Virus record (IMG/VR): IMGVR_UViG_3300005805_000064
Location: 21,268 to 85,267 of that record
Length of the DNA: 64,000 nt
From: a virus
Taxonomy: Duplodnaviria > Caudoviricetes
Reading direction: 5' to 3' (one strand)
Below, one piece after another: positions 1-31,531 of the stretch (position 1 is its first letter; every line of letters starts with the position of its first letter). The notes under the pieces were generated by a model. That model was not told the DNA's origin and did no database searches. It worked only from the letters and a program-made list of their open reading frames with translations. The translations under genes were made by a program, and so were the position numbers.

Positions 1-3000
1 TATCAACAGATTCATGGGGATCATCTAATGTGAAGTCAAGACCTACGCCAGTGTTATTCAATGTCAACTTCTTGTTATATGCGATCATGGCTTGGTGACC
101 ATATACAAGCCCGTTTAACGGGTTCTTGGCTGTGAAGATGTAATGCTTGGGTATCTGCAATCTATCTGGTTGCCAGTTGAAATCGAACTTCTCATCGATC
201 TTGAGTTTAGCGAATACTGTAAACATCCAGGGTGTACTGCTTGCTTGTGCTGCGGCATGATATGCTGCTACACGACCATTCACACCATCTACTCTCACTA
301 CCTTGTTAGGCAGATGTTTAGTGATCTTCAACAAATGTTGATAGTTCTCTTCTGCGCAACTTTCACCATTGCTCAAGAAAACGATATCTAATGGTTTTGA
401 TTTAGCGACCCTCTTCGCTTTAGTTATATAAGGATAATCATATAATTCGTTATCCACATATAGTTTCGCTTCTTTTGGTAGTGCAAGAACTGTGCCACCT
501 GTGGTCAATATCTCAATATTCTTAGTATGATCTGCCCATAAACACACAGGTTCATCATAGTTCACCGTTATGTCCTTGTTGTCTGCTGTCTTAAAGATAG
601 CATACGGGAAGTCATAATCTGTCTTGACCGCATCGATATTAGTGTCATGGTCTAACACGAACTCGGGCGCAGGTAATCTCTTTGTCCTGATATGATTGTT
701 ATAATTGATCTTATCATAATCTTCTAACAGATTCATGTCATCGATCAAACTCTTTAATTTGTTGACATCGACTAAGAATGTGTCGCCGAACTTCTGCTTG
801 TCGCTAGGGAACACATGTAGATTCTCTTTAGCGAATGGATCGCAGATATATGTCATATCGAAATTCTGATAATCGCACACAGAACTGCATACCCAGATAT
901 AATTTTCTTTGTTGGGTTTTACCTTCAACGATATGTCGCGCAATGTCTCAAGGTAACTCTTTCTATATGGCACTACATGTACAGTCTTACCCGTAGACTT
1001 AGATAATAATTGCTCTTTGATCTTGTCTGTTTCATTATTACCATGATCTATAAGATAGATATCGTACAAGCAATTCGTTGCCTTAGCAGCACGGTTCTTG
1101 ACAAAGTTAAGATTGCTTAGATGCTCTATGATCTTGATGTACTTGGTGTCTTCAGGAAATGTGTCTTTGTTCAGCAAGTATGTGGTTCCCCAATGGCTCC
1201 ACTGTGTGCCAAATATATGAACCATCTTCAATTGCCAAGGGTTAGGATAATACTTGAAGTCAAAGTTACTGTAATCAAGTTCGCTGTTCAATATCCATGC
1301 TAACTGTGTAGTGCTTCTATTCAAGCAACGATAGATCGTGTCTACCCAACTATTGAGATAGCGTGTCTTTTGTATGTTAGGGAATCTTTCTTGCAACTTC
1401 TCAAATCTTTCTTTAGCCTCGGCATTGCCGCGGTCGATCATGAAGATATCTGGCTGTATGAACAAGTCGGCTAGATATTCGTTCTCTGCTTTGACATCGC
1501 CCGTGACGAAATTATACTGAGTGAAGCCTTGCTTATATAGTTTGCTGTTGACGAAATATGTTTGTGTCTCTTTCGCTTCAGGGCTACCGAATACATGAAC
1601 GAATCTTGCCTGTTCAATATTTGGACGCCAACTGAAATTGAAATTGCTGTAATTAATGTTCTTGTTCAACGCCCAGAACAATTCATCTGTGTGTTCATCT
1701 ATCAAGTCTTCAAGTGTGGTCTGTATATAATACTTAGGAATCTCTACGAACTCACTACGGTGTTTCTTTGTCACACGCTGTAGTTTGATGATCTCACCGT
1801 TGTTCTTTTTAGTTTTGTATATAGGGCCATCTGTATCATCGAACAATGTGCCGAACTGATAGATATATGGCGGGCTACCGGGATTAGGTCTCCAACTGAA
1901 ATCAAAGTCATCAGTATTGATATTTTCTGGTATGACCCAATTGGTCATATCGCTCACTACTTCTGCCGTGATATCATGTATGTACTTTTTCTCAGTAGCA
2001 TTCTTGACATGATACTCTAATGTTGGTTCTACTTCGCCACTGTTCCACTGATTGCCGAACACATAGATATAGGGAGGACTAGTAGGATCAGGTCTCCAAC
2101 TATAGTCAAAATCACTTCTGACTTTGATCAACTCACGCCACTTGTTGTAATCAGGTAATACATGCGCAGTTTGCGGCATATACTTACGCTGTGTAGCACC
2201 CTTGACATGATATTCTAATGTAGGTTCTATCTCAGCACTATTCCACTGATTACCGAACACATAGATATAAGGCTCGTCATGTGGATCAGGTACCCAACTA
2301 TAATCGAAACTTGTGCGATCTACAGGTATGATCTCTGTGAATCGATCATAGTTCTGTGCTAACTGTGCTACGAATGAATTGTCATACTTGTAATCAGTAG
2401 CGCCGCTGACCCTGTACAATATAGTAGGCATCTTTTCTGCTGGATACTGAGTGTTACCGAAAGCATAGATATAAGGTTGTTCTTTGGGGTTCGGTCTCCA
2501 ACTAAAGTCAAAACTTTCTTCAACGATAGGATGCAATATCTTATAGTTATTCTTGTTAGGCAATACGGTAGCAACAATGTCCTCTATATACTTGTATTCA
2601 GTAGCGCCGGGCACATGATATTCTAATGTAGGTTCTACGCTGGCTAAGTTCCATTGATTACCAAACACATAGATATATGGCGGAGCCTTAGGATCAGGCA
2701 CCCAACCAAAATCAAAATCTGATTTGTCTACTGGTATCTTTTCTACCCAGTGTGTCATGTTAGTTGCTAACTTGGCTTTGACATCATCGACATACTTGAT
2801 CTCAGTAGCATTCTCTACGACATAACGAACAGTAGGCATGACTTCGCCGGGATACTGAGTATTACCGAACACATAAATGAATGGATCATCGTATGGGTCA
2901 GGACGCCAGCTAAAGTCGAACTCACTTTCTACTATAGGTATCAATATCTCAAACTTACTTTTGTCTTGTGCGACCTTAGCGATGATATCATGCACATACT

Positions 3001-6000
3001 TTATCTCAGTGGCACCAGGCACATGATATTCAACTGTAGGTTCTTTCTCTGCTCTATTCCATTGATTACCGAACACATAGATATATGGTGGTGCTTCGGG
3101 ATGCGGTACCCAACTGAAATCAAAACTATCAGGTTCTAATCTTATCTTTACTTTAAAATTCTTAGTATCAACTAATGTCTTTGCTTGTATGCCTTTGATA
3201 TATTTCTTTTGAGTAGCATTATGTGTATGATATACAGGACCTCCTACATCATTCCATATCGTAGCAAACTCATAGTCATATGGCTCTTCTGTATTATCAG
3301 GATGCCAACTAAAATCAAAACTATCAACATCTATGTTGCTAGGAATAGTCCAGTTAGTCTTATCAGATAGTTTGATAGCATATTGAACATCGACATATTT
3401 TGTCTCAGTAGCACCTTCGACAACATATCTAGGACCATTAGTCTTTTGATGTTGCGTACCAAACTCATATATGAACGCAGGTTCAGTATCGTCTGGATGC
3501 CAACTAAAATCAAACTGTGAAACATCTAAACCTTCAGGTATCACATAATTTTTGATATCAGGCAGTCTAACTGCTCTCTGACTATCAATATACTTGACTT
3601 CTGTGGCTCCTTCAACCGTATATGTAGGTCCGCCTGTCTTCTGCCATTGTGTACCGAACTGATAGATATATGGCGGGCTACCCGGATCGGGCAACCATTC
3701 GAAATCGAATTTATCTAAATCTATATTATTGTCATATCTCCATTTAGTCATGTCAGCAAATGTCTTTGCTACAACTTCGTTCACATATTTTAATTCCGTA
3801 GCACCCGGCACTACATATTTTACTGTGGGCATGATCTCAGCACTATACTGCTCATTGCCGAACACATAGATATATGGCTGTTCTGTATTATCAGGATGCC
3901 AACTATAATCAAAACTTTTGATTTTTATATCACATAACTGCCAATATATAGATGTAGGTTTAGCGATTGCCTTATCGCTGTACATGTATTTGATCTCACT
4001 AGCACCTTCTACAACATATCTAGGACCGCCGTTCTTTTGATGCTGTGTGTTGAACTCGTAGATATAAGGTTGATCATGTGGATTAGGAATCCAACTAAAA
4101 TCAAACTTGCTATCATCAATATTATCAGGTACTATCCAATTTGTTTTATTCTGTGCTAACTTAGCAACGATATCTGTGATATATTTTTCTTTTATAGCAC
4201 CAGGCATACGATATTCAATCGTAGGCATTTGTCTAGCATCATGATGCTGATTACCAAAGATGTAAATGTAAGGTTCTTCGGTATTATCGGGATGCCAACT
4301 GTAATCAAAATCTTCTATCTCATGATCTATTAAAATATTGAAATTGTTTTGATCAGGCAATCTTTTAGCGATTATACCCTCGACAATCTTGACTTCAGTT
4401 GCACCAGGAACGACATATCTTGGTCCACCGTTCTTTTGATGCTGCGTGCCAAACTCATATATGTAGTCAGGCTCCAATGGGTCGGGCCTCCATGTAAAAT
4501 CAAAACTATTTTTGTCTACATTAGCAGGTATATCCCATCGATCATATTCCGGCAATACAACTACATCATCAGTCATGTACTTTATCTCGGTAGCACCGGG
4601 CACAACATATTCAACTGTTGCTTTATACTTGTTACTGATATACTTGTTACCCCAACGATAGATGTAAGGAGGATCATTGGGATTTGGTATCCAACTAAAA
4701 TCAAACTTATTTTCGTCAATTGGCTGAGTGATTATCCAATTGGTTTTATCTATATCTAATGTTGCTACGATGTCTGCGACATACTTGATTTCAACTGCGC
4801 CCGGTACTACATACTGTATAGTAGGCATTTCTTCTGCTTTGTATTGGTTGTTACCAAAAATATAGATATATGGTTGTTCACTGTTATCAGGGTGCCAACT
4901 ATAGTCGAAATCTTTTATCTTTATATTTTGATTCACAAGCCAATTTGTTATGGTGGGCAACGCTCTTGCCTGTTGACTATCAATATATTTGATTTCAGAT
5001 GCGCCGGGGACAACATATCTAGGACCACCTGTTCTCTGCCACTGCGTGCCGAACTCATAGATATAAGGAGGGTCTTTAGGATGGGGTACCCAGCCAAAGT
5101 CAAACGCGGATATATCGATATTTTCATTAACATGCCAACATTCAGGCTTAATTCCTATCTTAGCCTTGATAGTGTCGATATATTTGTATTCACTGGCGCC
5201 TTCTACAACATATTGTAGCGTCGGCATAATCTCACCTGAATAGTGCTGATTGCCAAACACATAGATATAAGGCTGTTCACTACTATCAGGATGCCAACTA
5301 TAATCGAAATCTTCTACAGGAAAATCTGTAACAACAGTGAATCTATCTTTTTGCGGCATATGCTTCACGGATTGTGAATCAATATACTTGATCTCACTAG
5401 CACCTTCTATGATATATCTTGGTCCATTTGTCTTTTGATGTTGCGTGCCAAACTCATAGATATAAGGTGGGTCGTTCGGATTAGGCTCCCAACTATAATC
5501 AAAGGTCTCATCATCGACACTAGAAGGTACTGACCAGTTCGTCATGCATGGCTTACGGACTACACGGTCGTTCATGTATTTGTACTGAGTGGCGCCCTCT
5601 ACTTTATAGGCTACGCTTACTTTGTCTCTTGGATCATTATGCTGATTACCCCATGCATATATGTAAGGCGGTGCACCTGGATCTGGTCGCCATGTGTAAT
5701 CCATGCCTGTGCAATCTTCATATATCTCAAATAACTCAGGCTTTGACTTTAATCTTGCATACCATGCGTTGTCAATATACTTTCTTTCAATCGCGCCTTC
5801 TACATGATATTCAATAGTAGGCATCTCTTCAGCACGGTAATGCTGGTTACCCCATACATAGATATAAGGCGGATGTGTGGGGTCCGGGACCCAGGCCCAG
5901 TCAAAACTATTATCATCTACATCATGTATTATTTTGTAATTATTTTTATTAGGTTTTAATTCTACAAATTTCTCCATGTACTTGTAGTCTGTAGCCCCGG

Positions 6001-6469
6001 GCACACGATATTCTATAGCAGGCTTGTGCGTAGCAGGAAAATATCTACAACCCCAGGCATAGATATAGGGAGGATCGGTTGGGTCCGGGTACCAACTGAA
6101 ATCAAACAACTTCTCATCGACATCATAATTTAATACCCAATTGTCAGACTTGCTCTCAGTCCTTAACAGTTGAGGAACATCTTGTCTGTATATTATATTA
6201 CCGCCAGACTCTTTAGCACATAGCCAAGTACCGCTATCTTTATTATGCTGGCTGGGCCATACATTATCATGCTCGCCGGTCCATACTTGGTCGTCTGGTA
6301 AAAATTCAAAATCGAAATCCCAATCGAAACCTGTATAGTCGCAGAACTCGTTGACTATCCAAAAATGTTCAGTCGTTGCTAGTAATCTTGCTTCTTCTAA
6401 ATTTTTAGCAGGCTGTTCTAATGGATGAACATTGGGTTTTTTGCCGAAGTAGAATACATCTCTTAACAT
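1..6469 (-). CDS. Giant repeat protein (>2156 aa, runs off the left edge, absent from the ORF track): degenerate GT-A-like N-module, 22 tandem ~67-aa repeats, then three degenerate GT-A-like modules
   Basis: Manual translation. ATG at 6469 (MLRDVFYFGKKPNVHP...). The same frame is open where I translated it in register at 4142-4312, 1022-1500 and 2-460 (...PLDIVFLSNGE...VDGVNGRVAAYHAAAQASSTPWMFTVFAKL...NPLNGLVYGHQAMIAYNKK...), and the repeat motif reads through the stretches between. No stop before position 1, which explains why the track omits it. I did not check every codon in register. Confidence 0.9.
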   Translation of the reverse strand, partial: MLRDVFYFGKKPNVHPLEQPAKNLEEARLLATTEHFWIVNEFCDYTGFDWDFDFEFLPDDQVWTGEHDNVWPSQHNKDSGTWLCAKESGGNIIYRQDVPQLLRTESKSDNWVLNYDVDEKLFDFSWYPDPTDPPYIYAWGCRYFPATHKPAIEYRVPGATDYKYMEKFVELKPNKNNYKIIHDVDDNSFDWAWVPDPTHPPYIYVWGNQHYRAEEMPTIEYHVEGAIERKYIDNAWYARLKSKPELFEIYEDCTGMDYTWRPDPGAPPYIYAWGNQHNDPRDKVSVAYKVEGATQYKYMNDRVVRKPCMTNWSVPSSVDDETFDYSWEPNPNDPPYIYEFGTQHQKTNGPRYIIEGASEIKYIDSQSVKHMPQKDRFTVVTDFPVEDFDYSWHPDSSEQPYIYVFGNQHYSGEIMPTLQYVVEGASEYKYIDTIKAKIGIKPECWHVNENIDISAFDFGWVPHPKDPPYIYEFGTQWQRTGGPRYVVPGASEIKYIDSQQARALPTITNWLVNQNIKIKDFDYSWHPDNSEQPYIYIFGNNQYKAEEMPTIQYVVPGAVEIKYVADIVATLDIDKTNWIITQPIDENKFDFSWIPNPNDPPYIYRWGNKYISNKYKATVEYVVPGATEIKYMTDDVVVLPEYDRWDIPANVDKNSFDFTWRPDPLEPDYIYEFGTQHQKNGGPRYVVPGATEVKIVEGIIAKRLPDQNNFNILIDHEIEDFDYSWHPDNTEEPYIYIFGNQHHDARQMPTIEYRMPGAIKEKYITDIVAKLAQNKTNWIVPDNIDDSKFDFSWIPNPHDQPYIYEFNTQHQKNGGPRYVVEGASEIKYMYSDKAIAKPTSIYWQLCDIKIKSFDYSWHPDNTEQPYIYVFGNEQYSAEIMPTVKYVVPGATELKYVNEVVAKTFADMTKWRYDNNIDLDKFDFEWLPDPGSPPYIYQFGTQWQKTGGPTYTVEGATEVKYIDSQRAVRLPDIKNYVIPEGLDVSQFDFSWHPDDTEPAFIYEFGTQHQKTNGPRYVVEGATETKYVDVQYAIKLSDKTNWTIPSNIDVDSFDFSWHPDNTEEPYDYEFATIWNDVGGPVYHTHNATQKKYIKGIQAKTLVDTKNFKVKIRLEPDSFDFSWVPHPEAPPYIYVFGNQWNRAEKEPTVEYHVPGATEIKYVHDIIAKVAQDKSKFEILIPIVESEFDFSWRPDPYDDPFIYVFGNTQYPGEVMPTVRYVVENATEIKYVDDVKAKLATNMTHWVEKIPVDKSDFDFGWVPDPKAPPYIYVFGNQWNLASVEPTLEYHVPGATEYKYIEDIVATVLPNKNNYKILHPIVEESFDFSWRPNPKEQPYIYAFGNTQYPAEKMPTILYRVSGATDYKYDNSFVAQLAQNYDRFTEIIPVDRTSFDYSWVPDPHDEPYIYVFGNQWNSAEIEPTLEYHVKGATQRKYMPQTAHVLPDYNKWRELIKVRSDFDYSWRPDPTSPPYIYVFGNQWNSGEVEPTLEYHVKNATEKKYIHDITAEVVSDMTNWVIPENINTDDFDFSWRPNPGSPPYIYQFGTLFDDTDGPIYKTKKNNGEIIKLQRVTKKHRSEFVEIPKYYIQTTLEDLIDEHTDELFWALNKNINYSNFNFSWRPNIEQARFVHVFGSPEAKETQTYFVNSKLYKQGFTQYNFVTGDVKAENEYLADLFIQPDIFMIDRGNAEAKERFEKLQERFPNIQKTRYLNSWVDTIYRCLNRSTTQLAWILNSELDYSNFDFKYYPNPWQLKMVHIFGTQWSHWGTTYLLNKDTFPEDTKYIKIIEHLSNLNFVKNRAAKATNCLYDIYLIDHGNNETDKIKEQLLSKSTGKTVHVVPYRKSYLETLRDISLKVKPNKENYIWVCSSVCDYQNFDMTYICDPFAKENLHVFPSDKQKFGDTFLVDVNKLKSLIDDMNLLEDYDKINYNNHIRTKRLPAPEFVLDHDTNIDAVKTDYDFPYAIFKTADNKDITVNYDEPVCLWADHTKNIEILTTGGTVLALPKEAKLYVDNELYDYPYITKAKRVAKSKPLDIVFLSNGESCAEENYQHLLKITKHLPNKVVRVDGVNGRVAAYHAAAQASSTPWMFTVFAKLKIDEKFDFNWQPDRLQIPKHYIFTAKNPLNGLVYGHQAMIAYNKKLTLNNTGVGLDFTLDDPHESVD
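1800..6130 (-). repeat. 22 intragenic tandem repeats, ~200-bp period, consensus FD(F/Y)SWxPDPxxxPYIYxFG(NQW/TQH)...Y.VxGAxExKY
   Basis: The FDFSW-encoding motif (forward strand ccaact..aatcaaa-like) recurs at about 6105, 5900, 5695, 5495, 5300, 5095, 4900, 4700, 4495, 4300, 4100, 3905, 3700, 3505, 3310, 3115, 2910, 2710, 2505, 2300, 2100 and 1900. The copies are diverged at the DNA level and conserved at the protein level. Confidence 0.9.
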
Positions 6470-6482: not shown

Positions 6483-7130
6483 TCATAATTTTATTTGGAA
6501 ATAATTATTTGCACATTCATGTAATGAATTATTTTGTATAAACTTAGTTAAAAAAGATGCAAGTAGCATGTTTTCATATGGACTAAAATGATTCGGGCTT
6601 GAATCACAATTAACCCAATTTTTGCGGGACTTGATACCTAGTCTTCTACTTAATGAAAATAGATCCGGTTTAAACTTTGTACCATTTAATTCTGACGATA
6701 TTATTTCAGTATCCTTAAAACAAAACAAGTGTATCACATTTTTATCAGCAACAATGTTGTTTAGTTCGTTAAACCATTGCAGCATAGCCCATTGATTCAC
6801 TTTTTCATTGTAAACATGTTTAAGATAAAACTCTCTTATTTCATTTTTTAAAGAGATACTTTCATCTGATCCAAAATAGGTTCGTTTGTCCCCTAACATC
6901 CTAGATTGTTCAGTATGACAAAATACGAATAAGTCTGTATTATTGAACTTTGTTCTGTGCTGATTTTTATATTGTATTAAATCTAATCTGCTAGGCCACC
7001 AAGAACAACCAGGAAAACCTTCTCCTGTTAATTCATATCCTAGATTGTTGGCTAGAATCAAGGGCCAATGCTCAGTCGGGCTAGTTCTATTAAAACAAAA
7101 ACTATCACCGGTTATATAGATATATTTCAA
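6483..7130 (-). CDS. SGNH/GDSL hydrolase-like protein
   Basis: N-terminal YITGDSF (block I Ser), GxS-type block II (GFPGCSW) and C-terminal PNHFS His motif. Confidence 0.65.
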   Translation of the reverse strand: MKYIYITGDSFCFNRTSPTEHWPLILANNLGYELTGEGFPGCSWWPSRLDLIQYKNQHRTKFNNTDLFVFCHTEQSRMLGDKRTYFGSDESISLKNEIREFYLKHVYNEKVNQWAMLQWFNELNNIVADKNVIHLFCFKDTEIISSELNGTKFKPDLFSLSRRLGIKSRKNWVNCDSSPNHFSPYENMLLASFLTKFIQNNSLHECANNYFQIKL

Positions 7131-8608
7131 CTTACTACCTTTAAATCGTACAATTTTTCAAATCTGTCAGCGTCACTACGATCATTGACCATTGGCTCGC
7201 CGCGTATATTCAATGATGTATTGAGCAACATTGGACAGCCTGTTTTCTTATACCATTTTTCTAAGAGTTGTCGTATCCCAGATCGATCTTCTGGAACAGT
7301 CTGTACACGGCTAGTCCCGTCATGATGAACAATAGCGGGATAAAGGTCAGGACGCTTGCAAGTAGCGATGACCTGCATATACCTACTATCATTCCAATTA
7401 ACAGGCATATCGAAATATTGATGTACATACTCCTCAAGAATGACTGGAGCAAAGGGTCTAAATTTTTGTCTTCGTTTGATTTCATTGACTTTATCCTTTA
7501 TCTCGGGTCCTCGAGGATCAGCCAATAAACTACGGTTGCCTAATGCGCGAGGCCCGAATTCTGCTCTTCCGCTAGCAACACCTACCATCTTGTTCTTCTT
7601 AAGTTCTTTGATAACTTTATCTACGGGATATGGACCTGCTATCTCATGACCTAAGAATGCGTCAGTCCAATTTATCTTTCTGCCATAACCCAATGCTGCT
7701 GCACCTAGGCTGTTACCTGCATCGCCCGGGTTAGGCATGATCCATATATCTTTAAAATATTTACCTAGCAATCGATTAGCGAGGCAGTTTAGTGCCACAC
7801 CACCGCCATAAACTAAGTTTTTGCTGCTACCTAATCTAAATGCTTTATGCATGACCTTCTCTATCAAAGTCTCGCACACTAACTGTGCGCTGCTTGCTAT
7901 GTCCATGTCATCTGCTTTAGTTAAAAAATTATTAGGTTCGAGCCCTATGTGTAGGTTGTGTCTAAAATCTAACTCAAATAAATCAGACATATAATGACTG
8001 ACGATTCTGTTGGCATGGCTAGGTTTACCATATGCAGCCATTCCCATTAGGATATATTCTTCTTCGTTAGGTTTTAATCCAACACGCTGTGTCATGGCAC
8101 TATAAAATAGACCTATACTATTAGGATACTTCTTGCTCCACAACTTAGTATAGTGCGCAGTACCATTCTTGTCATAACATGCATCCCATATGCTGATGCA
8201 ATCCATCTCACCTATAGCATCGATGATGACTACAGTGGCATGATCAAAGGGACTAGTCTGAAATCCTGCTGCGGCATGTGACTTATGATGAACATGAGTC
8301 TGTATAGGTCTGTCCCCTAACAGATCACATAGTTCAGAACCTATGATTCTCTTGACACTTAGCGGGCTTATAGTTTGTCCAGCGCGCCATTGCCTATAAG
8401 CCTTTAACCATGGTTTCTCATAATAGTTCAGTTTATAGGTCTCACCTGCATAGGATAATGCATCCTTGATGAGTCCTTCACAAAGGTTCTCGTCATGCTT
8501 CTTTTTGCTATATCTCTCGCTATGTCCGGCAAACAGTATATTGCCATCGTCTGAGATAACGCTCAAAGCAGCATCATGAAATCCCGCGCTTATACCTATA
8601 TGATTCAT
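7127..8608 (-). CDS. O-carbamoyltransferase, NodU/CmcH/TobZ family (Kae1-like plus YrdC-like domains). Probable start is MNHIGIS at 8608 rather than 8641.
   Basis: Family motifs GISAGFHDAA, HHKSHAAAGF, IDAIGE, SIGLFY, EYILMGMAAYG, GGVALNCLAN, PGDAGNSLG, GRAEFGPRALGNRS, KRRQKFRPFAP, HHDGTSRVQTV and LNTSLN. The ATG at 8608 forms an ATGA overlap with the upstream stop. Confidence 0.95.
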   Translation of the reverse strand: MNHIGISAGFHDAALSVISDDGNILFAGHSERYSKKKHDENLCEGLIKDALSYAGETYKLNYYEKPWLKAYRQWRAGQTISPLSVKRIIGSELCDLLGDRPIQTHVHHKSHAAAGFQTSPFDHATVVIIDAIGEMDCISIWDACYDKNGTAHYTKLWSKKYPNSIGLFYSAMTQRVGLKPNEEEYILMGMAAYGKPSHANRIVSHYMSDLFELDFRHNLHIGLEPNNFLTKADDMDIASSAQLVCETLIEKVMHKAFRLGSSKNLVYGGGVALNCLANRLLGKYFKDIWIMPNPGDAGNSLGAAALGYGRKINWTDAFLGHEIAGPYPVDKVIKELKKNKMVGVASGRAEFGPRALGNRSLLADPRGPEIKDKVNEIKRRQKFRPFAPVILEEYVHQYFDMPVNWNDSRYMQVIATCKRPDLYPAIVHHDGTSRVQTVPEDRSGIRQLLEKWYKKTGCPMLLNTSLNIRGEPMVNDRSDADRFEKLYDLKVVS

Positions 8609-9486
8609 TGACAAACTACACCTTCTATTTGATCTGCCCAATATTTATGATGGTTGATACCGGGATGTGATCTATCTCTAGCCAAATCTAAATTTGTTTC
8701 TATATCTTCAGGACTAGTCCACTCCGGCAAAAGAGTAATATGTTCGAATTTCATTAATTTCATCATTTGATAAGTGGGCCTATCCCAGGATGATATGAAT
8801 GTTTTTATGTCTTTAAGTTTAGACAAATAATCTAGATTATATATGTCGTCCTTCATTCTTCTTATTAATTCTGGTTCGGGAGTATATTTGAAGTATGACT
8901 TTGTTTGTATGTTATAATCCTCTAAATCTTTTTCTTGTTGCATTAACAAATTACATAACTTTATAGACTGGTTATTAATCTTATTAATAGCACACAGTTG
9001 TCTTCCATACGAAGGCATCAAAAATACCGCTCGGTCTATTTTCATATGTCTACTGATTATTGAAAAAACATCGCAAGTTGCTTTTATACTGCTTCCGGAA
9101 ATTCCGAAATTATATGAGTTTAAATTATGTTTTTTTGAAAGAAGCTTATGCCACAATTTATCAGACGGTAACCCTACCCCAAAGGTATAACTACAACCAA
9201 ACGCTGCTAATTCTAAATGACTATTTTGATTTATTTCGATATCTCTAAAACCTAATGAGTTCAGCACATAATCAAAGTCACCATGTTTCCAGTTTTCTGC
9301 ATTATCTTTTTCTGCTACTGTCCACATAGGTACCTGCTTTTTTAATTCACCATTTGCTAATATTAAATCAGGTCTGGCTGTAACCGGAGTATAATTAGAG
9401 AGATAATTTAAACTACACCCGTGTAGGTTTAATTGCAGCAATTCAGTTTGATTCTCAAATCCTACATTCAGTCTTTTTAATGCCAT
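8605..9486 (-). CDS. SGNH hydrolase-like protein
   Basis: LNSLGFRD followed by AAFGCSYTFGVG (block I variant), NFGISGSS (block II) and DRSHPG (DxxH). Confidence 0.7.
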   Translation of the reverse strand: MALKRLNVGFENQTELLQLNLHGCSLNYLSNYTPVTARPDLILANGELKKQVPMWTVAEKDNAENWKHGDFDYVLNSLGFRDIEINQNSHLELAAFGCSYTFGVGLPSDKLWHKLLSKKHNLNSYNFGISGSSIKATCDVFSIISRHMKIDRAVFLMPSYGRQLCAINKINNQSIKLCNLLMQQEKDLEDYNIQTKSYFKYTPEPELIRRMKDDIYNLDYLSKLKDIKTFISSWDRPTYQMMKLMKFEHITLLPEWTSPEDIETNLDLARDRSHPGINHHKYWADQIEGVVCQ

Positions 9487-9492
9487 GTGTAT

Positions 9493-9594
9493 TCAATAAA
9501 TGAATGGGTCGCGCTTTTTTAATTCTTTCAATCGTTTTTTATAACGATATTCCATGATTATCTTATAATAAATTCGTTTTATAAAATTAAACAT
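9493..9594 (-). CDS. 33-aa basic microprotein MFNFIKRIYYKIIMEYRYKKRLKELKKRDPFIY (not in track)
   Basis: ATG at 9594 and TGA at 9493-9495. It fills the gap between the rSAM stop (9596) and the SGNH start (9486) almost exactly. Confidence 0.75.
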   Translation of the reverse strand: MFNFIKRIYYKIIMEYRYKKRLKELKKRDPFIY

Positions 9595-9595
9595 A

Positions 9596-10777
9596 TTATT
9601 CACCTTTTTTAATTAACTTCTCGTCTACAGTTTTTGTCACATACAACTTATCTATGGCTGAGATAGATCCACAAGTTTCTACGCAATACAATAGTCTTCC
9701 CTCTTCTACTGTTTTTGCTTTCCAACCATCTAGAAAGAAAGGACCAAAATAAGGACCCATCAATATTTCATATATAGAGTTTTTTCTCAGATCAAGTTTA
9801 TCTTTGCCCATCTCTTGCACTTTTTTATTGAACTGCCAACGACTATAGGTGCTACTAAATTGCCCGAACACTCCACCTAAGAAACAACATGGCAGCAAAT
9901 GTCCAGTAGCCGACACATATATTTCCTGTACATATTGATCTAATGATTTGCAGCGAATGCCGGAACTCTTTGCTAAATTTCTACTAAATTCAGTTAACTC
10001 AGGTACCGGTTCTACCATAGCATGTTTAAAATCAATCTTATAATCAGATGGAATATTAGACCTTTCACCTGTAAAGTTTACAGGATATATAGTATAATCA
10101 AAAGTTCCATCTCGTTTATATACATTCATTCCTTGCTGCTTTCCCTGATACTCACCGAACCCCATTGGTCTTTTCTCTGCAAAATGAAACCCTAATTTAG
10201 ACGCTAATTGTCTAGCCTCTTCTACCTGATGTTGATTATGTTCGAATACCAAGAATTCCCATATACCGAAAGCACCTGTTTTGGCATATGCTTCCATGTT
10301 CGCAAATAATCTATCCCACTTAACACCGCGTCTGTATATATGGTTTGTATCTTCTAAACCATCCACACTGAATACTACTGCCGGCTGATAAAATGCATGA
10401 CTTAAGTTTTTCTCTCTAGGAACACTAGCAAAAAATTTTCCTACTTCTGACCAATATTCTGGATTGCGCATACCGCCATTAGTTCGTACTTGTTGTGCGA
10501 TATATTTTTTACTGTTAGATTGAAAATATTCTAATATAGGTATTAAATCTAATGCCATACCTGGATCGCCGACATTACCGCAAAAGTTAATACCTATGAT
10601 ATTTTCTACGAACTTTTTAGGAAAGAAATTTTTTATATCATCTATAGTAAGTTCTGTGATTTCTAGATTAGGACTTACTGGACCTCCTGCAAGATTTCTG
10701 CTACATGCAGGACAACTAGCATTGCATCTTGATGTAAGTTCTATGTGAAGCCTACCTATATTATTAATATTATACAT
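9596..10777 (-). CDS. Radical SAM protein with C-terminal twitch/SPASM-like Cys module
   Basis: CNASCPAC near the N-terminus, CGNVGDP in place of GGEP, TNGG, FSVDG, and C-terminal C...IYVSATGHLLPCC...CVETC. Confidence 0.9.
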   Translation of the reverse strand: MYNINNIGRLHIELTSRCNASCPACSRNLAGGPVSPNLEITELTIDDIKNFFPKKFVENIIGINFCGNVGDPGMALDLIPILEYFQSNSKKYIAQQVRTNGGMRNPEYWSEVGKFFASVPREKNLSHAFYQPAVVFSVDGLEDTNHIYRRGVKWDRLFANMEAYAKTGAFGIWEFLVFEHNQHQVEEARQLASKLGFHFAEKRPMGFGEYQGKQQGMNVYKRDGTFDYTIYPVNFTGERSNIPSDYKIDFKHAMVEPVPELTEFSRNLAKSSGIRCKSLDQYVQEIYVSATGHLLPCCFLGGVFGQFSSTYSRWQFNKKVQEMGKDKLDLRKNSIYEILMGPYFGPFFLDGWKAKTVEEGRLLYCVETCGSISAIDKLYVTKTVDEKLIKKGE

Positions 10778-12026
10778 CAGTTTTTCCTATAATACTTTCC
10801 ATCATGTTGGCGACTTTTTTAAAACGATTTTTCCAATCATCTTTTCTTCTCACATCTAAATCATTTAAAAATTGATAAAGATTATATACCTGCTCTTTAT
10901 TCACTTCACTAGACTGCATCTTTGCTCGGATACCGTATACAGTATCCTGATATGATAACATATTGTTGTCTTTAATAACATCGATAAACTTGTCTAAATC
11001 TTCTAGAAATAAATCTCCGAAATGATAAACATCAAAGCAATTAGGAACCACAACCGTATTCCAATGAAAAGTGATATGCTTGATTTTTTTCCATTCTTTT
11101 ACTTTTTCGGCGAGCAGATAAAAACTAGGCATTGACAAGGCAGTGATAGTCGAATGTATTTGAACCTCAACACCCGCAGTATCTAGCATCGTCAGAATGT
11201 TCTTTTCAGCCCACTCCATATTCAATCCATATCTAACATATTCTAAATCAGGTCCCCAGCAGTCTATGCTGCATACTACCATCATACTTTTTATTTTCTT
11301 CTCATAAATTAATTTTCGCACCTTATCGATTTTTGATTTGAACTTACCGGGCTCATGATTTAAATTGCTAAAAATATGCCAGTTTAATTCTGGACAAGGA
11401 TGCTTGTCAAAAAAATCTAAGCACATGTCAAACTCTTCTTGATAGAAAGGTTCACCACCTAGCATTTTAAACATCACTAATTTACTACCATGTTCTGCCA
11501 TATATTCAAAAAATTTATCTCTATAGGTAGTGTAGTTTTTTCTATCATCGTTTAGCCATTCGCTATAATTTGTATTAAATTTGCTAGGACCATATTTTTT
11601 CACTTCATGTTCGATTTGACTGCTAAATGTAGGTCTACAATATACACAAGATTGGTTGCACAGATTACTGAAATATACTTCAAGTATTGTAGGGGTAACT
11701 TTGATCGCATTGGGATCTGTTTCTAATTCAGGCGGAAGGATAGTAGTGTCTTTGTTTGTAAATGCGGTTCTATCGCTTAACCCACCTGCCATTTCGATGT
11801 CTCTACAATATTCACACCCATTACCAGGCCATTCTCCTTTAAGCATCTTGGCTCTATCTAGCATCTTTCCGGGTAAATTATGAAAGTCTTTAATCGTGTC
11901 GGCATCAAATTTATAGTGTTTGCATCTGTGACAACTGGCTGTTGTACCGGTATTTAAATAGATTGAACTCCATGCCCACTTATACTGACATGCTGCATTG
12001 TTTTGTATAGGAAATATTTTACTCAT
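10770..12026 (-). CDS. Radical SAM protein with N-terminal twitch-like module (subfamily A)
   Basis: CQYKW...SCHRC and CEYC, then CNQSCVYC, LGGEPF and SIDCWG. Confidence 0.9.
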   Translation of the reverse strand: MSKIFPIQNNAACQYKWAWSSIYLNTGTTASCHRCKHYKFDADTIKDFHNLPGKMLDRAKMLKGEWPGNGCEYCRDIEMAGGLSDRTAFTNKDTTILPPELETDPNAIKVTPTILEVYFSNLCNQSCVYCRPTFSSQIEHEVKKYGPSKFNTNYSEWLNDDRKNYTTYRDKFFEYMAEHGSKLVMFKMLGGEPFYQEEFDMCLDFFDKHPCPELNWHIFSNLNHEPGKFKSKIDKVRKLIYEKKIKSMMVVCSIDCWGPDLEYVRYGLNMEWAEKNILTMLDTAGVEVQIHSTITALSMPSFYLLAEKVKEWKKIKHITFHWNTVVVPNCFDVYHFGDLFLEDLDKFIDVIKDNNMLSYQDTVYGIRAKMQSSEVNKEQVYNLYQFLNDLDVRRKDDWKNRFKKVANMMESIIGKTDV

Positions 12027-12778
12027 TTATATTTGTCCATGATAGGTCTGATGATATTTTGATAATACACTTCGTGTCCTTTTTCATTAGTATGATTGTC
12101 TACGCATTTATAAATGTTTTTGTTAGCCCAATCATTATTGGTCCCGCTGTAATCATAACTTTGAATATCTAGAAATTGGTGTTTGATTATGCCGGTATCG
12201 TTTTGCAAATGTTTTATGATATCTGGGTCATACCAATACATAGGCATGGAAAACTCAAAAGAAAATCCTCTAAGTTCACAGTATTGTTTGGCTGCTAGAA
12301 GAGACATCAATCCTATGTTTCTTCCTATCTCATCCTGATATAAATGCATTATATACATCTTTTTAGCCAAAAAATATTGCTCAAGGTGCGGATCCATCTT
12401 TCCCTGCCATGCGGGATCCCAATTATGCGACAATACCCATGAGTGCAGTTCTCCCCTATTTCCTGATGCTTCTAACCTATCAGGACTAGTACCTGCAAAA
12501 AGCACTAGTGTTTTTAATTTAGAATGATTGTCCTTTATTCCGAAATTCATTAAGTCGCGGAACATAGCCGGATTAGAATGCCCGCATCTAGCAAGATTTA
12601 TGACAGGTATGTTATATTCTTTACTTAGCAAACTTGCCCAGCAATATTCACTCGGAAAATTATCAGGAGTTCGTTGTCCTACTACCTGCTTAGTGTCAGG
12701 ATCGATATAAAAAACACGATCTTGGCATCCATGACCATATGTATAACTATCTCCAAAAACTACAATACGCTCTATCAT
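12023..12778 (-). CDS. SGNH hydrolase-like protein
   Basis: VVFGDSYTYGHG, NLARCGHSN and C-terminal DNHTNEKGH. Confidence 0.7.
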   Translation of the reverse strand: MIERIVVFGDSYTYGHGCQDRVFYIDPDTKQVVGQRTPDNFPSEYCWASLLSKEYNIPVINLARCGHSNPAMFRDLMNFGIKDNHSKLKTLVLFAGTSPDRLEASGNRGELHSWVLSHNWDPAWQGKMDPHLEQYFLAKKMYIMHLYQDEIGRNIGLMSLLAAKQYCELRGFSFEFSMPMYWYDPDIIKHLQNDTGIIKHQFLDIQSYDYSGTNNDWANKNIYKCVDNHTNEKGHEVYYQNIIRPIMDKYK

Positions 12779-12779
12779 T

Positions 12780-25724: not shown

Positions 25725-25731
25725 ATATTCC

Positions 25732-27297
25732 TCAATTTTGTGTATATTCTTTCACGCACTCTTTCCAGTAATTCTTAAACTCCGGGAAGGTGAGTAGGAA
25801 ATTAGTGCCCCGTCTTTTATCGAACTCTTTAATGAAAAGATAGAAATTCTTCTTATTTATTGACTTTTGATTTTGGGGCAAAGATTCCTTCATCACAGCC
25901 AAATCTCGCTTGACTTTGAGTATCTCGTAGGGCTTGAAACCCTCGAATGTCTCTAAGTAGTCATCTCCCTGCACATTGTCTTCCATGAACTTCAAACAAC
26001 GCTCTACTTCTTGTATCTCTTTCTCGGTAGCATTAGTCACGCTGAACCAAGGCGGGAAACGCAAGATAGGAATGTCAAAGAACACACGCTGGAACTTTTT
26101 CTGCGTGTAGACTTTGTGAACGATACCATGCTTCTTTTCTTCTTCCGTTTGCTCAGGACTGATAGTGAACTCAGTCTGCGCACGACCGCCGAACTCACGG
26201 CGTAGTTCCAATATCATCTCAAGGAACTTGTGTAAACTAGGTATGCTCAACAAGTTAAAGGTATTGATGAAACTCACAGTAGTGTACTTTGTCTCACGCA
26301 AGAAGGTTCTGATGTTGTTCAACATCCTATCATATTCTAGACCTGTGCGCATATACTCTGCTTGAGGGCCCACTCCGTCTAGTGACACGAATAGCCAGAA
26401 ATGCTTGAAACCTTTATCTACATACCAATGATTACCGCTGAACTCATTGAAGTTTTCCTTGTCTTCATATGTGCGCAACTCTTCGATAGCCTTGACTTTT
26501 TCTAGGAACTTATCAAATAGTTTCTGATCGGGTGGGCACATGTTGCTGGTTATGCTCAACTCAAGTTGTCCATGAGGATTCTTGTTGACATAATCAAGCA
26601 CTTTGAATGTGTTCTTGTCCATTAATGGCTCGCCACCTGTCATACGGAACACACGCAACTTTCTATAGATAGTGGGCCACCATTTCCAGAAAGCCTCTAC
26701 ATAAGGATTTTCTTTCTGTGCTACTCTTATGGGCATCAAGCCCTTTTGCTCTAATGATGGTAGATCATTGTGAACATAATTGTCTAACACGAATCCGCCA
26801 TACTTTCGTACTTCTTCTTCCCATGTCGTTGACAAGTGTGGGCTGCAATACATGCATTTGAAATTACATGCTTGATTGAAATTGACTTCTACATATCGGG
26901 GAGTCACATCATAGTCCCAAGGATTACCCGTGACTTCATCGAATGTAGGTGCGTTCCACCATTCGCTACTACGATAGTGACGATCACTTAGATGTCCTTT
27001 AGGATCATCGCTCTGCGCATCTTCTACACGCCAGCAATATGCACAGCCTTCGGGTCTTTTACCCTCAAGCATCATCTTGCGTTCGGCAATCTTTTGTGGT
27101 GTGTTGTGTAATGCGCTTGGTTGCTTTTCTAATAATTCTACAGGTATCTTATGTGTAGGTGGATGATAGCAACTCTGTGTGAGTCCTTGCGGCAAGTGCA
27201 AACTCACTTGCTGCCATTTTGCTAGGCATAAAGAAGGACTGACCGCATTTAAGCGGTCTCGCATGTCCCTAGCAAATTGATCGTATTCGCCTGACAT
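25732..27297 (-). CDS. Radical SAM protein with N-terminal twitch-like module (subfamily A)
   Basis: CLAKW...SCYHPP and CAYCW, then CNFKCMYC, TGGEPL and SLDG. Confidence 0.9.
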   Translation of the reverse strand: MSGEYDQFARDMRDRLNAVSPSLCLAKWQQVSLHLPQGLTQSCYHPPTHKIPVELLEKQPSALHNTPQKIAERKMMLEGKRPEGCAYCWRVEDAQSDDPKGHLSDRHYRSSEWWNAPTFDEVTGNPWDYDVTPRYVEVNFNQACNFKCMYCSPHLSTTWEEEVRKYGGFVLDNYVHNDLPSLEQKGLMPIRVAQKENPYVEAFWKWWPTIYRKLRVFRMTGGEPLMDKNTFKVLDYVNKNPHGQLELSITSNMCPPDQKLFDKFLEKVKAIEELRTYEDKENFNEFSGNHWYVDKGFKHFWLFVSLDGVGPQAEYMRTGLEYDRMLNNIRTFLRETKYTTVSFINTFNLLSIPSLHKFLEMILELRREFGGRAQTEFTISPEQTEEEKKHGIVHKVYTQKKFQRVFFDIPILRFPPWFSVTNATEKEIQEVERCLKFMEDNVQGDDYLETFEGFKPYEILKVKRDLAVMKESLPQNQKSINKKNFYLFIKEFDKRRGTNFLLTFPEFKNYWKECVKEYTQN

Positions 27298-28250
27298 TAC
27301 CAGCCTTCGATCCTTCTGATCACATCCATCTCTGTCACAAGAGGACCAAGATTATGCTTATCAGCATTGTAATGCCTCTTGAAGAATTCGCTTTGCTCTG
27401 CCGATAATGTGCAGATAGGTAAACCTAATTTGAACTTCAGTTGTTCGCCCACTTGTTCCATAGCGTCTTTGGGATCTTTGCCTTCTGCATATTCGTTCCA
27501 CAATGCAGGATAGTTATCGAACCATTGAACATTGCTATGGTCCCAGTCACTTAGCATAGTGAGATATGTTCCCAATCGTGCGCCATACATAGCCCAATAA
27601 CCGTTGTCAACATCTGCGCCTACATTCTGCCATATAGTGAGATTATTGAAGTTACGGCTTGCTACAGAATCTTTAAATTGCTCTACTGTCGGTACTGCGC
27701 CCTTGTTCAAGCACATCTTTACACCTTCACGGAAACCTGCACGCCATGCTTGAAACGGAGTGTAGTTAGGGTATGTAGTTGAATAGCAATCATACATAGC
27801 CCAATATAAACTGTCTTTGCTGTCTAGGCAGAAGTCTGCGATTCGTGATACATCACCTTCAGTCTGATGCTCATGTGTCTTCATCTCACGCACATAAGTC
27901 TTAGTCCAACTGCTCATGCCACCGTTACCATAACGCAAGCCATTGATAGCATTCACTGCCTTCCAACGGAACTGTGCTAACTTATACTTAGGATCTTTAT
28001 CTGTGAAATCGAATTGTATGTTGAAGAACTCAGGTTGCGGCATGTTGTCGCCGTCGATGAGAATAAAGCGTTCAGTATCGCTTGCCTCACCTGCTGCTTT
28101 ATGCGCAGCATCACTACCTTTAACATTATCAACACGCTTTGCCCAAGGAACCATGTTCTGAATCTGCATCCAGAATTCTTCTTTTTGTGGTTCATCATAA
28201 CTCAAGTAAATGCAGTCTAATTCTGCAACATCTACGATATCATAACTCAT
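27297..28250 (-). CDS. GT-A fold glycosyltransferase-like protein, homologous to the C-terminal module of the giant repeat protein
   Basis: DCIYLSYDE (beta1), RVDNVKGSDAAHKAA, FILIDGDN (DxD) and NGLRYGNGG. It aligns by eye with DIVFLSNGE...RVDGVNGRVAAYHAA...NGLVYGHQA at <1-400. Confidence 0.65.
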   Translation of the reverse strand: MSYDIVDVAELDCIYLSYDEPQKEEFWMQIQNMVPWAKRVDNVKGSDAAHKAAGEASDTERFILIDGDNMPQPEFFNIQFDFTDKDPKYKLAQFRWKAVNAINGLRYGNGGMSSWTKTYVREMKTHEHQTEGDVSRIADFCLDSKDSLYWAMYDCYSTTYPNYTPFQAWRAGFREGVKMCLNKGAVPTVEQFKDSVASRNFNNLTIWQNVGADVDNGYWAMYGARLGTYLTMLSDWDHSNVQWFDNYPALWNEYAEGKDPKDAMEQVGEQLKFKLGLPICTLSAEQSEFFKRHYNADKHNLGPLVTEMDVIRRIEGW

Positions 28251-30515: not shown

Positions 30516-30523
30516 TATTTATA
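30516..30523 (-). promoter_or_regulatory. T4-type late promoter TATAAATA heading the enzyme cluster
   Basis: Exact T4 late consensus in the intergenic gap, 18 nt upstream of the 30497 start. Confidence 0.75.
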
Positions 30524-31523: not shown

Positions 31524-31531
31524 TATTTATC
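31524..31531 (-). promoter_or_regulatory. Late-promoter motif GATAAATA
   Basis: Upstream of the 31494 start, with an AGGA SD between them. Confidence 0.65.

What the first reader, a model, noticed from the sequence alone, without database searches (positions are those of the whole stretch)
1..6469. Unannotated >2150-aa ORF with 22 tandem ~67-aa aromatic-rich repeats
The ORF track missed this gene because it runs off the window edge. It has 22 repeats at a ~200-bp period with consensus FDFSWxPDPxxxPYIYxFG...Y.VPGATExKY. There are two length classes in a mosaic order: a long form (FGNQW..AE..PT.EY) and a short form (FGTQHQK.GGPRY). The units are diverged at the DNA level, so this is an old, selected protein repeat. 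I cannot match it to a named repeat family. It is the terminal gene of the enzyme cluster within this window.
Basis: seen in the sequence. Interest (0 to 1): 0.85.

Follow-up and report, generated by a model that had tools for sequence, protein, structure and literature searches.

The report
Phage giant protein of half-glycosyltransferase repeats
An uncultured freshwater jumbo phage encodes a real 2,248-residue protein whose 22 repeats are copies of half of a sugar-transferase (GT-A) domain; it belongs to a large unnamed phage family that sits next to a carbamoyl-adding enzyme, and its function is untested.

Summary
A minus-strand ORF runs from the ATG at window 6469 off the left edge, with 2,156 codons and no stop. 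On the 85-kb contig it ends 92 codons further on, giving 2,248 aa.

It has 22 regular units of 64-68 aa: 14 long and 8 short, in the order LLLSLSLLSLSLSSSLLLLLLS. They average 41% aa and 52% nt identity, and dN/dS is about 0.05-0.08.

No Pfam, NCBIfam, PHROG or PDB-sequence family matches, but the repeat is not an orphan. Profile comparison (hhalign 97%, E 7e-11) and weak fold hits show each unit is the C-terminal half of a GT-A-like module.

The last 670 aa fold confidently (pLDDT 89) into tandem GT-A-like modules. The final module has family-invariant AKL where a stand-alone paralog in the same window keeps DGD.

The family is large, with more than 2,600 clusters, and confined to uncultured jumbo-phage contigs. 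Unit number ranges from 1 to about 33. A NodU-type carbamoyltransferase lies directly upstream in 61-62 of about 72 loci.

My best reading is a largely non-catalytic, glycan-handling partner of that enzyme in a phage glycan-tailoring island. A virion fibre or a radical-SAM substrate is less likely.

The parts
6134..6469 (-). N-terminal module, aa 1-112. It is a short strand-helix-strand followed by a degenerate copy of the FDF..P motif.
   Evidence: It is 54-89% identical across homologs that differ widely in repeat number. Residues 41-105 are modelled poorly, with pLDDT below 50. The start Met and following residues are invariant in 39 homologs.
1736..6133 (-). Array of 22 tandem units of 64-68 aa, aa 113-1578. 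Each unit is an all-beta half of a GT-A-like module.
   Evidence: define the units. In the AF2 model the repeats have pLDDT above 90 and are all-beta. hhalign to the C-terminal modules gives 97.1% probability, E 7e-11. dN/dS is 0.05-0.08.
1085..1735 (-). Modules A and B, aa 1579-1795. These are small GT-A-like modules, each containing the repeat motif. Module B carries the invariant NSELD at and just after the DXD position.
   Evidence: The repeat HMM hits C-terminal positions 24-61 and 150-182. Invariant columns are listed. The AF2 model has pLDDT 89.
428..1084 (-). Module C, aa 1796-2014. It has a nucleotide-diphospho-sugar-transferase-like fold.
   Evidence: VIA-align matches model residues 220-356 at Z 9.4-9.8 to Aq1419, TarI and IspD-type folds, and it pairs with module D in matches to K4CP, R699 and CHSY3.
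2..427 (-). Module D, aa 2015 to about 2181, which continues beyond the window edge and is followed by a helical tail to aa 2248. It is a GT-A fold with AKL (aa 2087-2089, window 203-211) at the DXD position.
   Evidence: VIA-align gives Z 11.5 to B4GALNT1 and 10-10.7 to the Leptospira GT, WrtF and ThuS. The paralog alignment places DGD opposite AKL. K510 and L511 are invariant and A509 is at least 90% conserved in 45 homologs. The last 92 codons lie at contig 20993-21267, outside the window.
7127..8641 (-). NodU/CmcH-type carbamoyltransferase, the conserved upstream partner gene.
   Evidence: Pfam Carbam_trans_N and Carbam_trans_C match at E 6e-36 and 8e-50. It is present in 62 of 72 related loci by tblastn, with its stop typically within about 10 nt of the repeat gene's start. 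By clustering it is at position -1 in 52 and -2 in 9 of 71 loci.
6483..7130 (-). A 215-aa ORF of unknown function inserted between the carbamoyltransferase and the repeat gene.
   Evidence: It has no Pfam, PHROG or NCBIfam match. A homolog is present in only 1 of 72 related loci.
27297..28250 (-). Stand-alone 317-aa paralog of module D that retains a canonical DGD motif.
   Evidence: The profile of the C-terminal region hits it at E 1.3e-13. BLASTP gives 29% identity over 174 aa and aligns its DGD with AKL of the giant protein.

Best explanation
The gene encodes a soluble, acidic 264-kDa protein of an uncultured freshwater jumbo myovirus. The whole protein is built from one ancestral GT-A (nucleotide-sugar transferase) module. 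It has a small head module, then 22 copies of only the C-terminal, acceptor-side beta half of the module, then four fuller modules (A-D) and a helical tail. The half-modules lack the nucleotide-binding half, so they cannot be catalytic. The last full module has also lost its DXD metal site. I infer that the protein is mainly a glycan-binding or glycan-positioning scaffold with at most one or two active transferase sites. I further infer that it works as the partner of the carbamoyltransferase encoded directly upstream, inside a late-expressed glycan-building island placed behind the tail-fibre genes. On this reading the repeat array holds or spaces a sugar chain, on the virion or on the host envelope, while it is extended and O-carbamoylated. 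Shown here: the fold, the origin of the repeat, the loss of DXD, the variable unit number, the gene linkage and the purifying selection. Inferred only: any sugar binding, any catalysis, the partnership with the carbamoyltransferase and the target.
For: Architecture and origin: the repeat HMM matches three sites in the C-terminal modules at equivalent positions, and hhalign of the repeat against the C-terminal profile gives 97.1%, E 7e-11. A distant subfamily (P0323, P0370) amplifies a longer unit of about 115 aa that includes the strand at the DXD position. The best fold hits for single repeats are GT-A proteins, though only at Z 3.6 or below.

Fold: the C-terminal model has pLDDT 89. Foldseek finds tandem-GT-A enzymes: K4CP, Mimivirus R699, LH3, LARGE1 and heparosan synthase. 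VIA-align gives Z 9.4-11.5 for modules C and D.

Lost DXD: invariant AKL sits opposite DGD of the in-window paralog.

Linkage: the carbamoyltransferase is adjacent in 61-62 of 71-72 loci.

Sugar context: UDP-glucose dehydrogenase, an epimerase/dehydratase, an SDR and a DegT aminotransferase lie in this contig or in related loci.

Protein properties: no TM segment, pI 5.0, 15% aromatic residues.

Selection and plasticity: dN/dS is 0.05-0.08. Unit number ranges from 1 to about 33, with whole-unit indels between close relatives.
Against: No sugar binding or catalysis has been tested. Fold similarity to GT-A is nearly matched by nucleotidyltransferases such as IspD and cytidylyltransferases (Z about 9.5), so the chemistry is not fixed. 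Module B keeps an invariant NSELD, and modules C and D keep many invariant polar residues, so real catalysis, perhaps metal-independent, cannot be excluded. Adjacency to the carbamoyltransferase shows co-inheritance and not physical or functional partnership. Late expression rests on a single TATAAATA motif 24 kb upstream. No cultured phage carries the full protein, so no virion proteome or phenotype bears on it.
Confidence: 0.5

Rival explanations
1. It is a structural virion fibre or decoration protein. The all-beta repeat array would form a shaft of variable length, and the degenerate GT-A modules would act as lectin-like heads that bind host surface glycans.
For: The gene lies in a co-directional run behind baseplate, giant-protein and fibre-chaperone genes. 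Unit number changes between close relatives, as it does in host-interaction proteins. The repeats are confidently modelled as folded all-beta units with pLDDT above 90. The protein is acidic and aromatic-rich. The DXD of the last module is lost.
Against: There is no PHROG or Pfam structural match and no fold match to any fibre, spike or adhesin. The immediate conserved neighbours are enzymes, not structural genes. No form of the repeat fused to longer proteins was found, which is weak evidence. No virion proteome exists for any carrier.
Confidence: 0.2
2. It is an active, possibly processive, multi-site glycosyltransferase. The repeat array would act as a molecular ruler or product track that sets the length of the glycan it makes.
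For: Module D plus the helical tail aligns over 190-220 residues with processive GT2 synthases: Chlorella virus and Xenopus hyaluronan synthases and BcsA, at Z 9.2-9.6. There are invariant polar residues such as NSELD, and a WRTxFRE helix shared with the DGD-bearing paralog. Unit number varies from 1 to about 33 around constant ends. The pairing with a NodU-type enzyme recalls the NodC/NodU pair; that comparison rests on my own knowledge.
Against: A canonical DXD is absent from module D in all 45 homologs. There are no TM helices of the kind processive synthases have. No Pfam GT family matches any part. The Z scores are in the range the tool calls common.
Confidence: 0.15
3. It is a substrate or scaffold of the neighbouring radical-SAM enzymes. 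They would crosslink or otherwise modify the aromatic repeat motifs, as RiPP maturases do.
For: Twelve or thirteen radical-SAM genes lie upstream in this window. At least one radical-SAM gene lies within 10 kb in 58 of 71 related loci. The repeats are rich in Trp, Tyr and Phe.
Against: The repeats are a well-folded domain with a recognisable enzyme-fold origin, not a leader-core peptide. Radical-SAM count does not track unit count (Spearman rho 0.03, p 0.83, n 62), and arrays of 14-21 units occur with no radical-SAM gene upstream. The type of radical-SAM enzyme differs between loci, B12-binding versus N-terminal twitch. The surrounding genes are sugar-nucleotide enzymes.
Confidence: 0.07

Closest known systems
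Tandem GT-A enzymes with accessory domains: E. coli K4 chondroitin polymerase (2z86), human LH3 (6fxm), Mimivirus R699 collagen glucosyltransferase (9dyt; PMC9546862, PMC12279948), LARGE1, and Pasteurella heparosan synthase 2
   Same: They also have several GT-A-type domains in one chain. The best Foldseek matches to the C-terminal 670 aa come from this group (E 3e-6 to 2e-3). In LH3 and R699 one of the GT-A-type domains is described as accessory rather than catalytic; that point is from my own knowledge and I did not read it in the papers listed.
   Different: Sequence identity is only 6-11%, and no Pfam GT family matches. None of these enzymes has a tandem array of half-domains. The canonical DXD is missing in the last module. 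TM-scores over the whole chain are low, 0.13-0.20.
Single-domain GT-A transferases: human B4GALNT1 (9h6k), Leptospira GT (6p61), WrtF, SunS/ThuS, SpsA, and STIV A197
   Same: They are the best structural matches to module D (Z 9.2-11.5, rmsd about 3 A, 131-141 residues). B4GALNT1, 6p61 and A197 are also the top, but weak, matches to a single repeat unit.
   Different: The repeat unit covers only about 60-65 residues of those folds, at Z 3.6 or below. Nucleotidyltransferases score almost as well on modules C and D.
Uncharacterised proteins A0A6J5LK21 and A0A6J5L5L5 of 'uncultured Caudovirales phage' (BFVD), and the hypothetical protein RsoM2USA_348 of Ralstonia jumbo phage RsoM2USA
   Same: These are true homologs. 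The BFVD models match at E 9e-73 and 4e-68, with 37-41% identity. The RsoM2USA protein matches module D plus the tail at 29% identity, E 1e-13.
   Different: None has a name or a tested function. The RsoM2USA protein is a stand-alone 233-aa domain without repeats and is not adjacent to that phage's carbamoyltransferase.
Hypervariable host-recognition regions of aquatic T4-like myophages (pelagimyophages and cyanomyophages, PMC7029224)
   Same: They show the same genomic logic: glycosyltransferases, sugar-nucleotide enzymes and radical-SAM cassettes placed behind a giant structural protein and the tail fibres.
   Different: That paper does not describe this protein. Its freshwater pelagimyophages lack radical-SAM and LPS-type genes. 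This contig's baseplate is closest to Rak2/121Q-like jumbo phages, at 33% identity.

Membership tests
GT-A fold (nucleotide-diphospho-sugar transferase superfamily) | Rossmann-like alpha/beta/alpha fold with a central mixed sheet | tested here: met
   Modules C and D of the AF2 model (pLDDT 89) align to GT-A and related nucleotidyltransferase structures at Z 9.4-11.5. Foldseek probability is up to 1.00.
GT-A fold (nucleotide-diphospho-sugar transferase superfamily) | DXD (or EXD) metal and nucleotide-sugar binding motif after strand beta-4 | tested here: not met
   This applies to module D. AKL, with K and L invariant and A at least 90% conserved in 45 homologs, aligns with DGD of the in-window paralog. 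Module B has an invariant NSELD at this position, and its competence is undecided.
GT-A fold (nucleotide-diphospho-sugar transferase superfamily) | Sequence membership in a curated glycosyltransferase family (Pfam or NCBIfam) | tested here: not met
   There is no Pfam, NCBIfam or PHROG match to the protein or its parts. None was found for nine distant relatives either. CAZy was not available.
GT-A fold (nucleotide-diphospho-sugar transferase superfamily) | Transfer of a sugar from a nucleotide-sugar donor | not testable with these tools
   This needs a biochemical assay.
Bifunctional two-GT-A polymerases (K4CP, heparosan synthase, LARGE1 type) | Two complete GT-A domains, each with its own DXD and donor site | tested here: inconclusive
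   Tandem GT-A-like modules are present. The last one lacks DXD, modules A and B are undersized, and whole-chain TM-scores are only 0.13-0.20.
RiPP or radical-SAM-modified precursor | Obligate co-occurrence with, and dependence on, a cognate radical-SAM maturase; an unstructured leader-core organisation | tested here: not met
   Arrays of 14-21 units occur without any radical-SAM gene within 10 kb upstream, and the counts are uncorrelated. The units are confidently folded, with pLDDT above 90. Modification itself was not testable.
Phage tail fibre or spike proteins | Similarity to known fibre or spike folds or families | tested here: inconclusive
   There is no PHROG structural family and no fibre-like fold match. 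Absence of a match does not exclude a new fibre type.
Named protein repeat families (Pfam repeats) | A significant profile match of the unit | tested here: not met
   Pfam's best hit is E 0.0078, below cut-off, and is unrelated. The PDB profile search's best hit is E 0.72. The unit profile finds only 160 representative clusters in 1.84 billion proteins, and all that were inspected belong to this family.

The most novel reading that the evidence does not exclude
The array of catalytically empty half-GT-A units is a molecular ruler or product track. The number of units, 1 to about 33 and changing by whole-unit indels between close relatives, would set the length or spacing of a carbamoylated glycan that the phage builds on its own particle or on the host envelope. 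That would be a protein-encoded, rapidly tunable glycan-length device made by amplifying a fragment of an enzyme fold.
Probability: 0.12. Interest if true: 0.8.

Novelty: new variant of a known kind. Interest (0 to 1): 0.55.

Why it matters
Amplifying a fragment of an enzyme domain, rather than a whole domain, into a conserved and strongly selected array of up to about 33 units is an unusual way to build a protein. The unit has no match among solved structures.

The family is abundant in lake and other aquatic metagenomes, with more than 2,600 clusters at 90% identity. It has no name and no tested member. It is locked to a carbamoyltransferase whose role in phages is also unknown.

Working out what the pair does would help explain the large glycan-tailoring islands of jumbo phages, and it could reveal how phages decorate their particles or remodel host surfaces. 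It would also give glycosyltransferase researchers a natural example of pseudo-enzyme modules reused as a scaffold.

Tried and rejected
- Pfam, PHROGs and NCBIfam scans of the protein, its parts and nine distant relatives found nothing usable.
- PDB sequence-profile searches with the repeat and with the C-terminal alignment found nothing.
- megablast of 20 kb against GenBank phages found no match. tblastn of the repeats also found none.
- The ESM Atlas returned only unnamed viral clusters for the C-terminus, with a weak 0.86 lead to Glycos_transf_2, and no usable hit for the repeats.
- Foldseek against PDB with the repeat model gave nothing at E 0.001 or better.
- The search for related loci with the unit alignment failed because no stretch was conserved enough.
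- The sigma-70 promoter and terminator scan around the gene was at chance level.
- The 33-aa microprotein ending in DPFIY does not look like a docking mimic of the repeat core. It occurs in only 5 of 72 loci, and in the model YIYxFG is a beta-strand of the unit. I treat the resemblance as probably coincidental.
- The Arch Virol 2025 'moraphage' paper (PMC12619734) mentions putative glycosyltransferases but not this protein in the passages I searched.
- The search for fused forms longer than 3,935 aa found none, which is weak evidence.


Full report
**1. The observation**

The ORF listing with open ends shows a minus-strand frame at window 2..6469. It has 2,156 codons, starts at an ATG, and has no stop before the window's left edge. 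The translation has no internal stop. The window is bases 21268-85267 of a single 85,267-bp contig. On that contig the frame ends 92 codons further on, so the protein is 2,248 aa (contig 20993-27736, P0002).

A motif scan and an alignment give 22 regular units at residues 113-1578 with periods of 64-68 aa.

Fourteen units are the long form and eight the short form, in the order LLLSLSLLSLSLSSSLLLLLLS. Tandem Repeats Finder finds no DNA repeat. The units average 41% protein and 52% DNA identity, and no pair exceeds 65% or 69% respectively.

The best partners of a unit usually lie two or more units away: 7 with 12, 6 with 11, 16 with 18 and 20, and 17 with 19. The array therefore grew by blocks.

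**2. The genome**

PHROGs identifies a gp6-like baseplate wedge (E 7e-254) and a gp5-like hub upstream. A 6,288-aa ORF and a protein with a Peptidase_G2 intramolecular-chaperone domain lie between them and the enzyme genes.

The wedge's nearest cultured relatives are Rak2/121Q-like jumbo myoviruses of 337-470 kb, at 31-33% identity. Homologs of the repeat protein lie on IMG/VR contigs of up to 525 kb. This is an uncultured jumbo myovirus.

Upstream of the repeat gene, on the same strand, are:
- a 215-aa ORF of unknown function;
- a NodU/CmcH-type carbamoyltransferase;
- twelve or thirteen radical-SAM genes, one of which I confirmed as NCBIfam NF033640, the N-terminal twitch type, at E 5e-108;
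- an SDR.

Downstream, starting 11 nt after the stop, are an AdoMet-decarboxylase-like gene, UDP-glucose/GDP-mannose dehydrogenase, a MoxR-type AAA ATPase with its VWA partner, thymidylate synthase and an NAD-dependent epimerase/dehydratase. The gene is therefore not the terminal gene of the run.

**3. The family**

The word-indexed search found 582 clusters of 1,236-3,934 aa and at least 2,043 shorter ones. All are unnamed or called 'hypothetical protein'. None above 3,935 aa was found, which is weak evidence.

A profile of the unit, searched against 1.84 billion representatives, finds only 160 clusters at E 0.001 or better. The unit is therefore confined to this family.

In 72 IMG/VR loci the N-terminal 112 aa and the C-terminal 670 aa are conserved at 54-90% identity. 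The profile-hit count runs from 4 to 36 per protein, which corresponds to 1 to about 33 regular units plus three degenerate ones.

Against the closest relatives the arrays are collinear except for whole-unit indels in the middle. L004 has two extra blocks of two units, and L005 has three fewer units. The outer units are about 76-96% identical.

dN/dS against L004 and L005 is 0.05-0.08 for the repeats and 0.04-0.07 for the terminal regions, with dS near saturation.

GTDB species genomes hold relatives only in one Haliscomenobacter MAG. Its two contigs carry the same phage genes, so they are phage contigs binned into the MAG, and this is at most a weak host hint.

**4. What the parts are**

The C-terminal 670 aa, folded with 45 homologs, gives a confident model (pLDDT 89, pTM 0.76).

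Foldseek's best solved matches are enzymes with several GT-A domains: K4 chondroitin polymerase, Mimivirus R699, LH3, LARGE1 and heparosan synthase 2.

VIA-align places GT-A or nucleotidyltransferase folds on model residues 220-356 (Z 9.4-9.8) and 437-603 (Z up to 11.5 to B4GALNT1). Longer alignments, which include the helical tail, go to hyaluronan and cellulose synthases (Z 9.2-9.6).

BFVD holds two true homologs, both 'uncharacterized protein' of uncultured Caudovirales. The only GenBank phage match is a 233-aa hypothetical protein of Ralstonia phage RsoM2USA, which covers the last module.

The N-terminus plus five units was folded with 39 homologs. The units come out with pLDDT above 90 and are all-beta, with three main strands per unit: YIYxFG, xEYxV and ATExKY onward. 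Residues 41-105 are poorly modelled.

Foldseek finds no solved match for the units. The exhaustive VIA search gives only Z 3.6 or below. Even so, the hits for single units are GT-A proteins, including B4GALNT1, the Leptospira GT and STIV A197, which also top the list for module D.

**5. Origin of the repeat**

- The unit HMM matches the C-terminal region at three equivalent places, each just after the strand that carries DXD in GT-A enzymes.
- Profile-profile comparison gives 97.1% probability, E 7e-11 over 52 columns.
- Distant relatives (P0323, P0370) keep the same head module and the same last module and tail. Their amplified unit is about 115 aa and includes the W[VI]W[VI]xDxRIDY strand.

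Each 67-aa unit is therefore the C-terminal half of a GT-A-like module: the DXD-position strand, the aromatic loop and three strands. It has no nucleotide-binding half. Two subfamilies amplified pieces of different length.

**6. Catalytic competence**

A 317-aa stand-alone paralog in the same window (27297-28250) matches the profile of module D at E 1.3e-13. In the pairwise alignment its DGD lies opposite AKL of the giant protein. K and L are invariant in all 45 homologs, and A is at least 90% conserved. Both proteins share the WRxxFRE helix.

Module D has thus lost the canonical metal site. Module B keeps an invariant NSELD at this position, and I cannot judge its meaning. The units themselves cannot bind a nucleotide-sugar in the usual way.

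**7. Linkage**

tblastn finds the carbamoyltransferase in 62 of 72 loci. Its stop is typically within about 10 nt of the repeat gene's start, and it is 66-87% identical across loci. Clustering places it at position -1 in 52 and -2 in 9 of 71 loci.

Homologs of this window's twitch-type radical-SAM genes occur in only about 20 loci. A B12-binding radical-SAM protein, which this contig lacks, occurs in 51 loci. At least one radical-SAM gene of either type lies within 10 kb in 58 of 71 loci.

The number of radical-SAM genes does not track the number of units (rho 0.03, p 0.83, n 62; not corrected for relatedness and limited to 10-kb flanks). Arrays of 14-21 units occur with none upstream.

Other recurrent neighbours are a DegT-type aminotransferase, UDP-glucose dehydrogenase and unknowns. 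It occurs in only 5 of 72 loci, always just upstream of the carbamoyltransferase.

**8. How it most likely works**

The protein is soluble (no TM-like stretch), acidic (pI 5.0) and 15% aromatic.

The evidence fits a glycan-handling protein best. That evidence is the GT-A ancestry, the empty half-modules, the lost DXD, the sugar-nucleotide genes around it and the fixed pairing with an O-carbamoyltransferase family. From my own knowledge, that family acts on sugars in NodU, NolO and TobZ.

On this reading the array binds or spaces a sugar chain, and the upstream enzyme carbamoylates it. Any remaining catalytic activity would sit in modules B-D.

A single TATAAATA lies at 30516-30523 on the coding strand, where chance would give about 10.6. 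That is compatible with one T4-type late promoter heading the island, but I did not test it. The literature places such islands behind the fibre genes of aquatic T4-like phages without assigning a target (PMC7029224).

The rivals are a structural fibre with lectin-like modules, an active processive transferase with a ruler, and a radical-SAM substrate. They are weighed in their own sections of this report.

**9. Novelty and earlier notes**

No paper found in three searches describes this protein. Notes from this scan on other genomes describe the same family and reach similar readings. I used two of them as leads and tested both here: FAK versus DGD, and the microprotein.

I class the finding as a new variant of a known kind. 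The fold superfamily is known. The architecture, a selected and copy-number-variable array of enzyme half-domains, is not. The function remains open.

Noticed in passing
window 33286-52152 (-): A 6,288-aa ORF lies directly downstream of the gp6-like baseplate wedge gene. It probably corresponds to the giant structural protein (VrlC-type) that precedes hypervariable regions in aquatic T4-like phages. I did not analyse it.
   Followed up: no
window 9596-27297 (-): A run of twelve or thirteen radical-SAM genes. Several have the SPASM/twitch-like Cys-rich domain at the N-terminus rather than the C-terminus. One of them (14033-15343) matches NCBIfam NF033640 N_Twi_rSAM at E 5e-108.
   Followed up: partly
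window 9493-9594 (-): A 33-aa basic microprotein ends in KKRDPFIY. Near-identical tails occur in 5 of 72 related loci, always just upstream of the carbamoyltransferase.
   Followed up: partly
window 30516-30523 (-): This is the only TATAAATA in 64 kb, where shuffles give 10.6 on average and never fewer than 1. The motif is strongly depleted. The single copy sits about 20 nt upstream of the ORF starting at 30497, at the head of the enzyme island.
   Followed up: no
L077 and L078 (NZ_JBBAKG010000003.1 and NZ_JBBAKG010000001.1): Two contigs of 148 and 183 kb in a Haliscomenobacter MAG each carry a short form of the protein together with the carbamoyltransferase, radical-SAM, epimerase, AAA and VWA genes of this phage type. 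They look like jumbo-phage contigs binned into a bacterial MAG.
   Followed up: partly
related loci, e.g. L072:3391-5967 (-): A B12-binding radical-SAM protein of about 735-860 aa is present near the carbamoyltransferase and repeat-gene pair in 51 of 71 related loci but is absent from this contig.
   Followed up: partly
P0323 (1,536 aa) and P0370 (1,017 aa): A distant subfamily has the same head and tail modules but an amplified unit of about 115 aa that keeps the W[VI]W[VI]xDxRIDY strand. This is a second, independent size of amplified GT-A fragment.
   Followed up: partly
window 6483-7130 (-): A 215-aa ORF with no family match is wedged between the carbamoyltransferase and the repeat gene. 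In most related loci those two genes abut, and a homolog of this ORF was seen in only one other locus.
   Followed up: no
window 31527-32477 (-): A 316-aa protein with a Peptidase_G2 intramolecular-chaperone autoproteolytic domain, as found at the C-termini of phage fibres and spikes, lies just downstream of the giant ORF.
   Followed up: no
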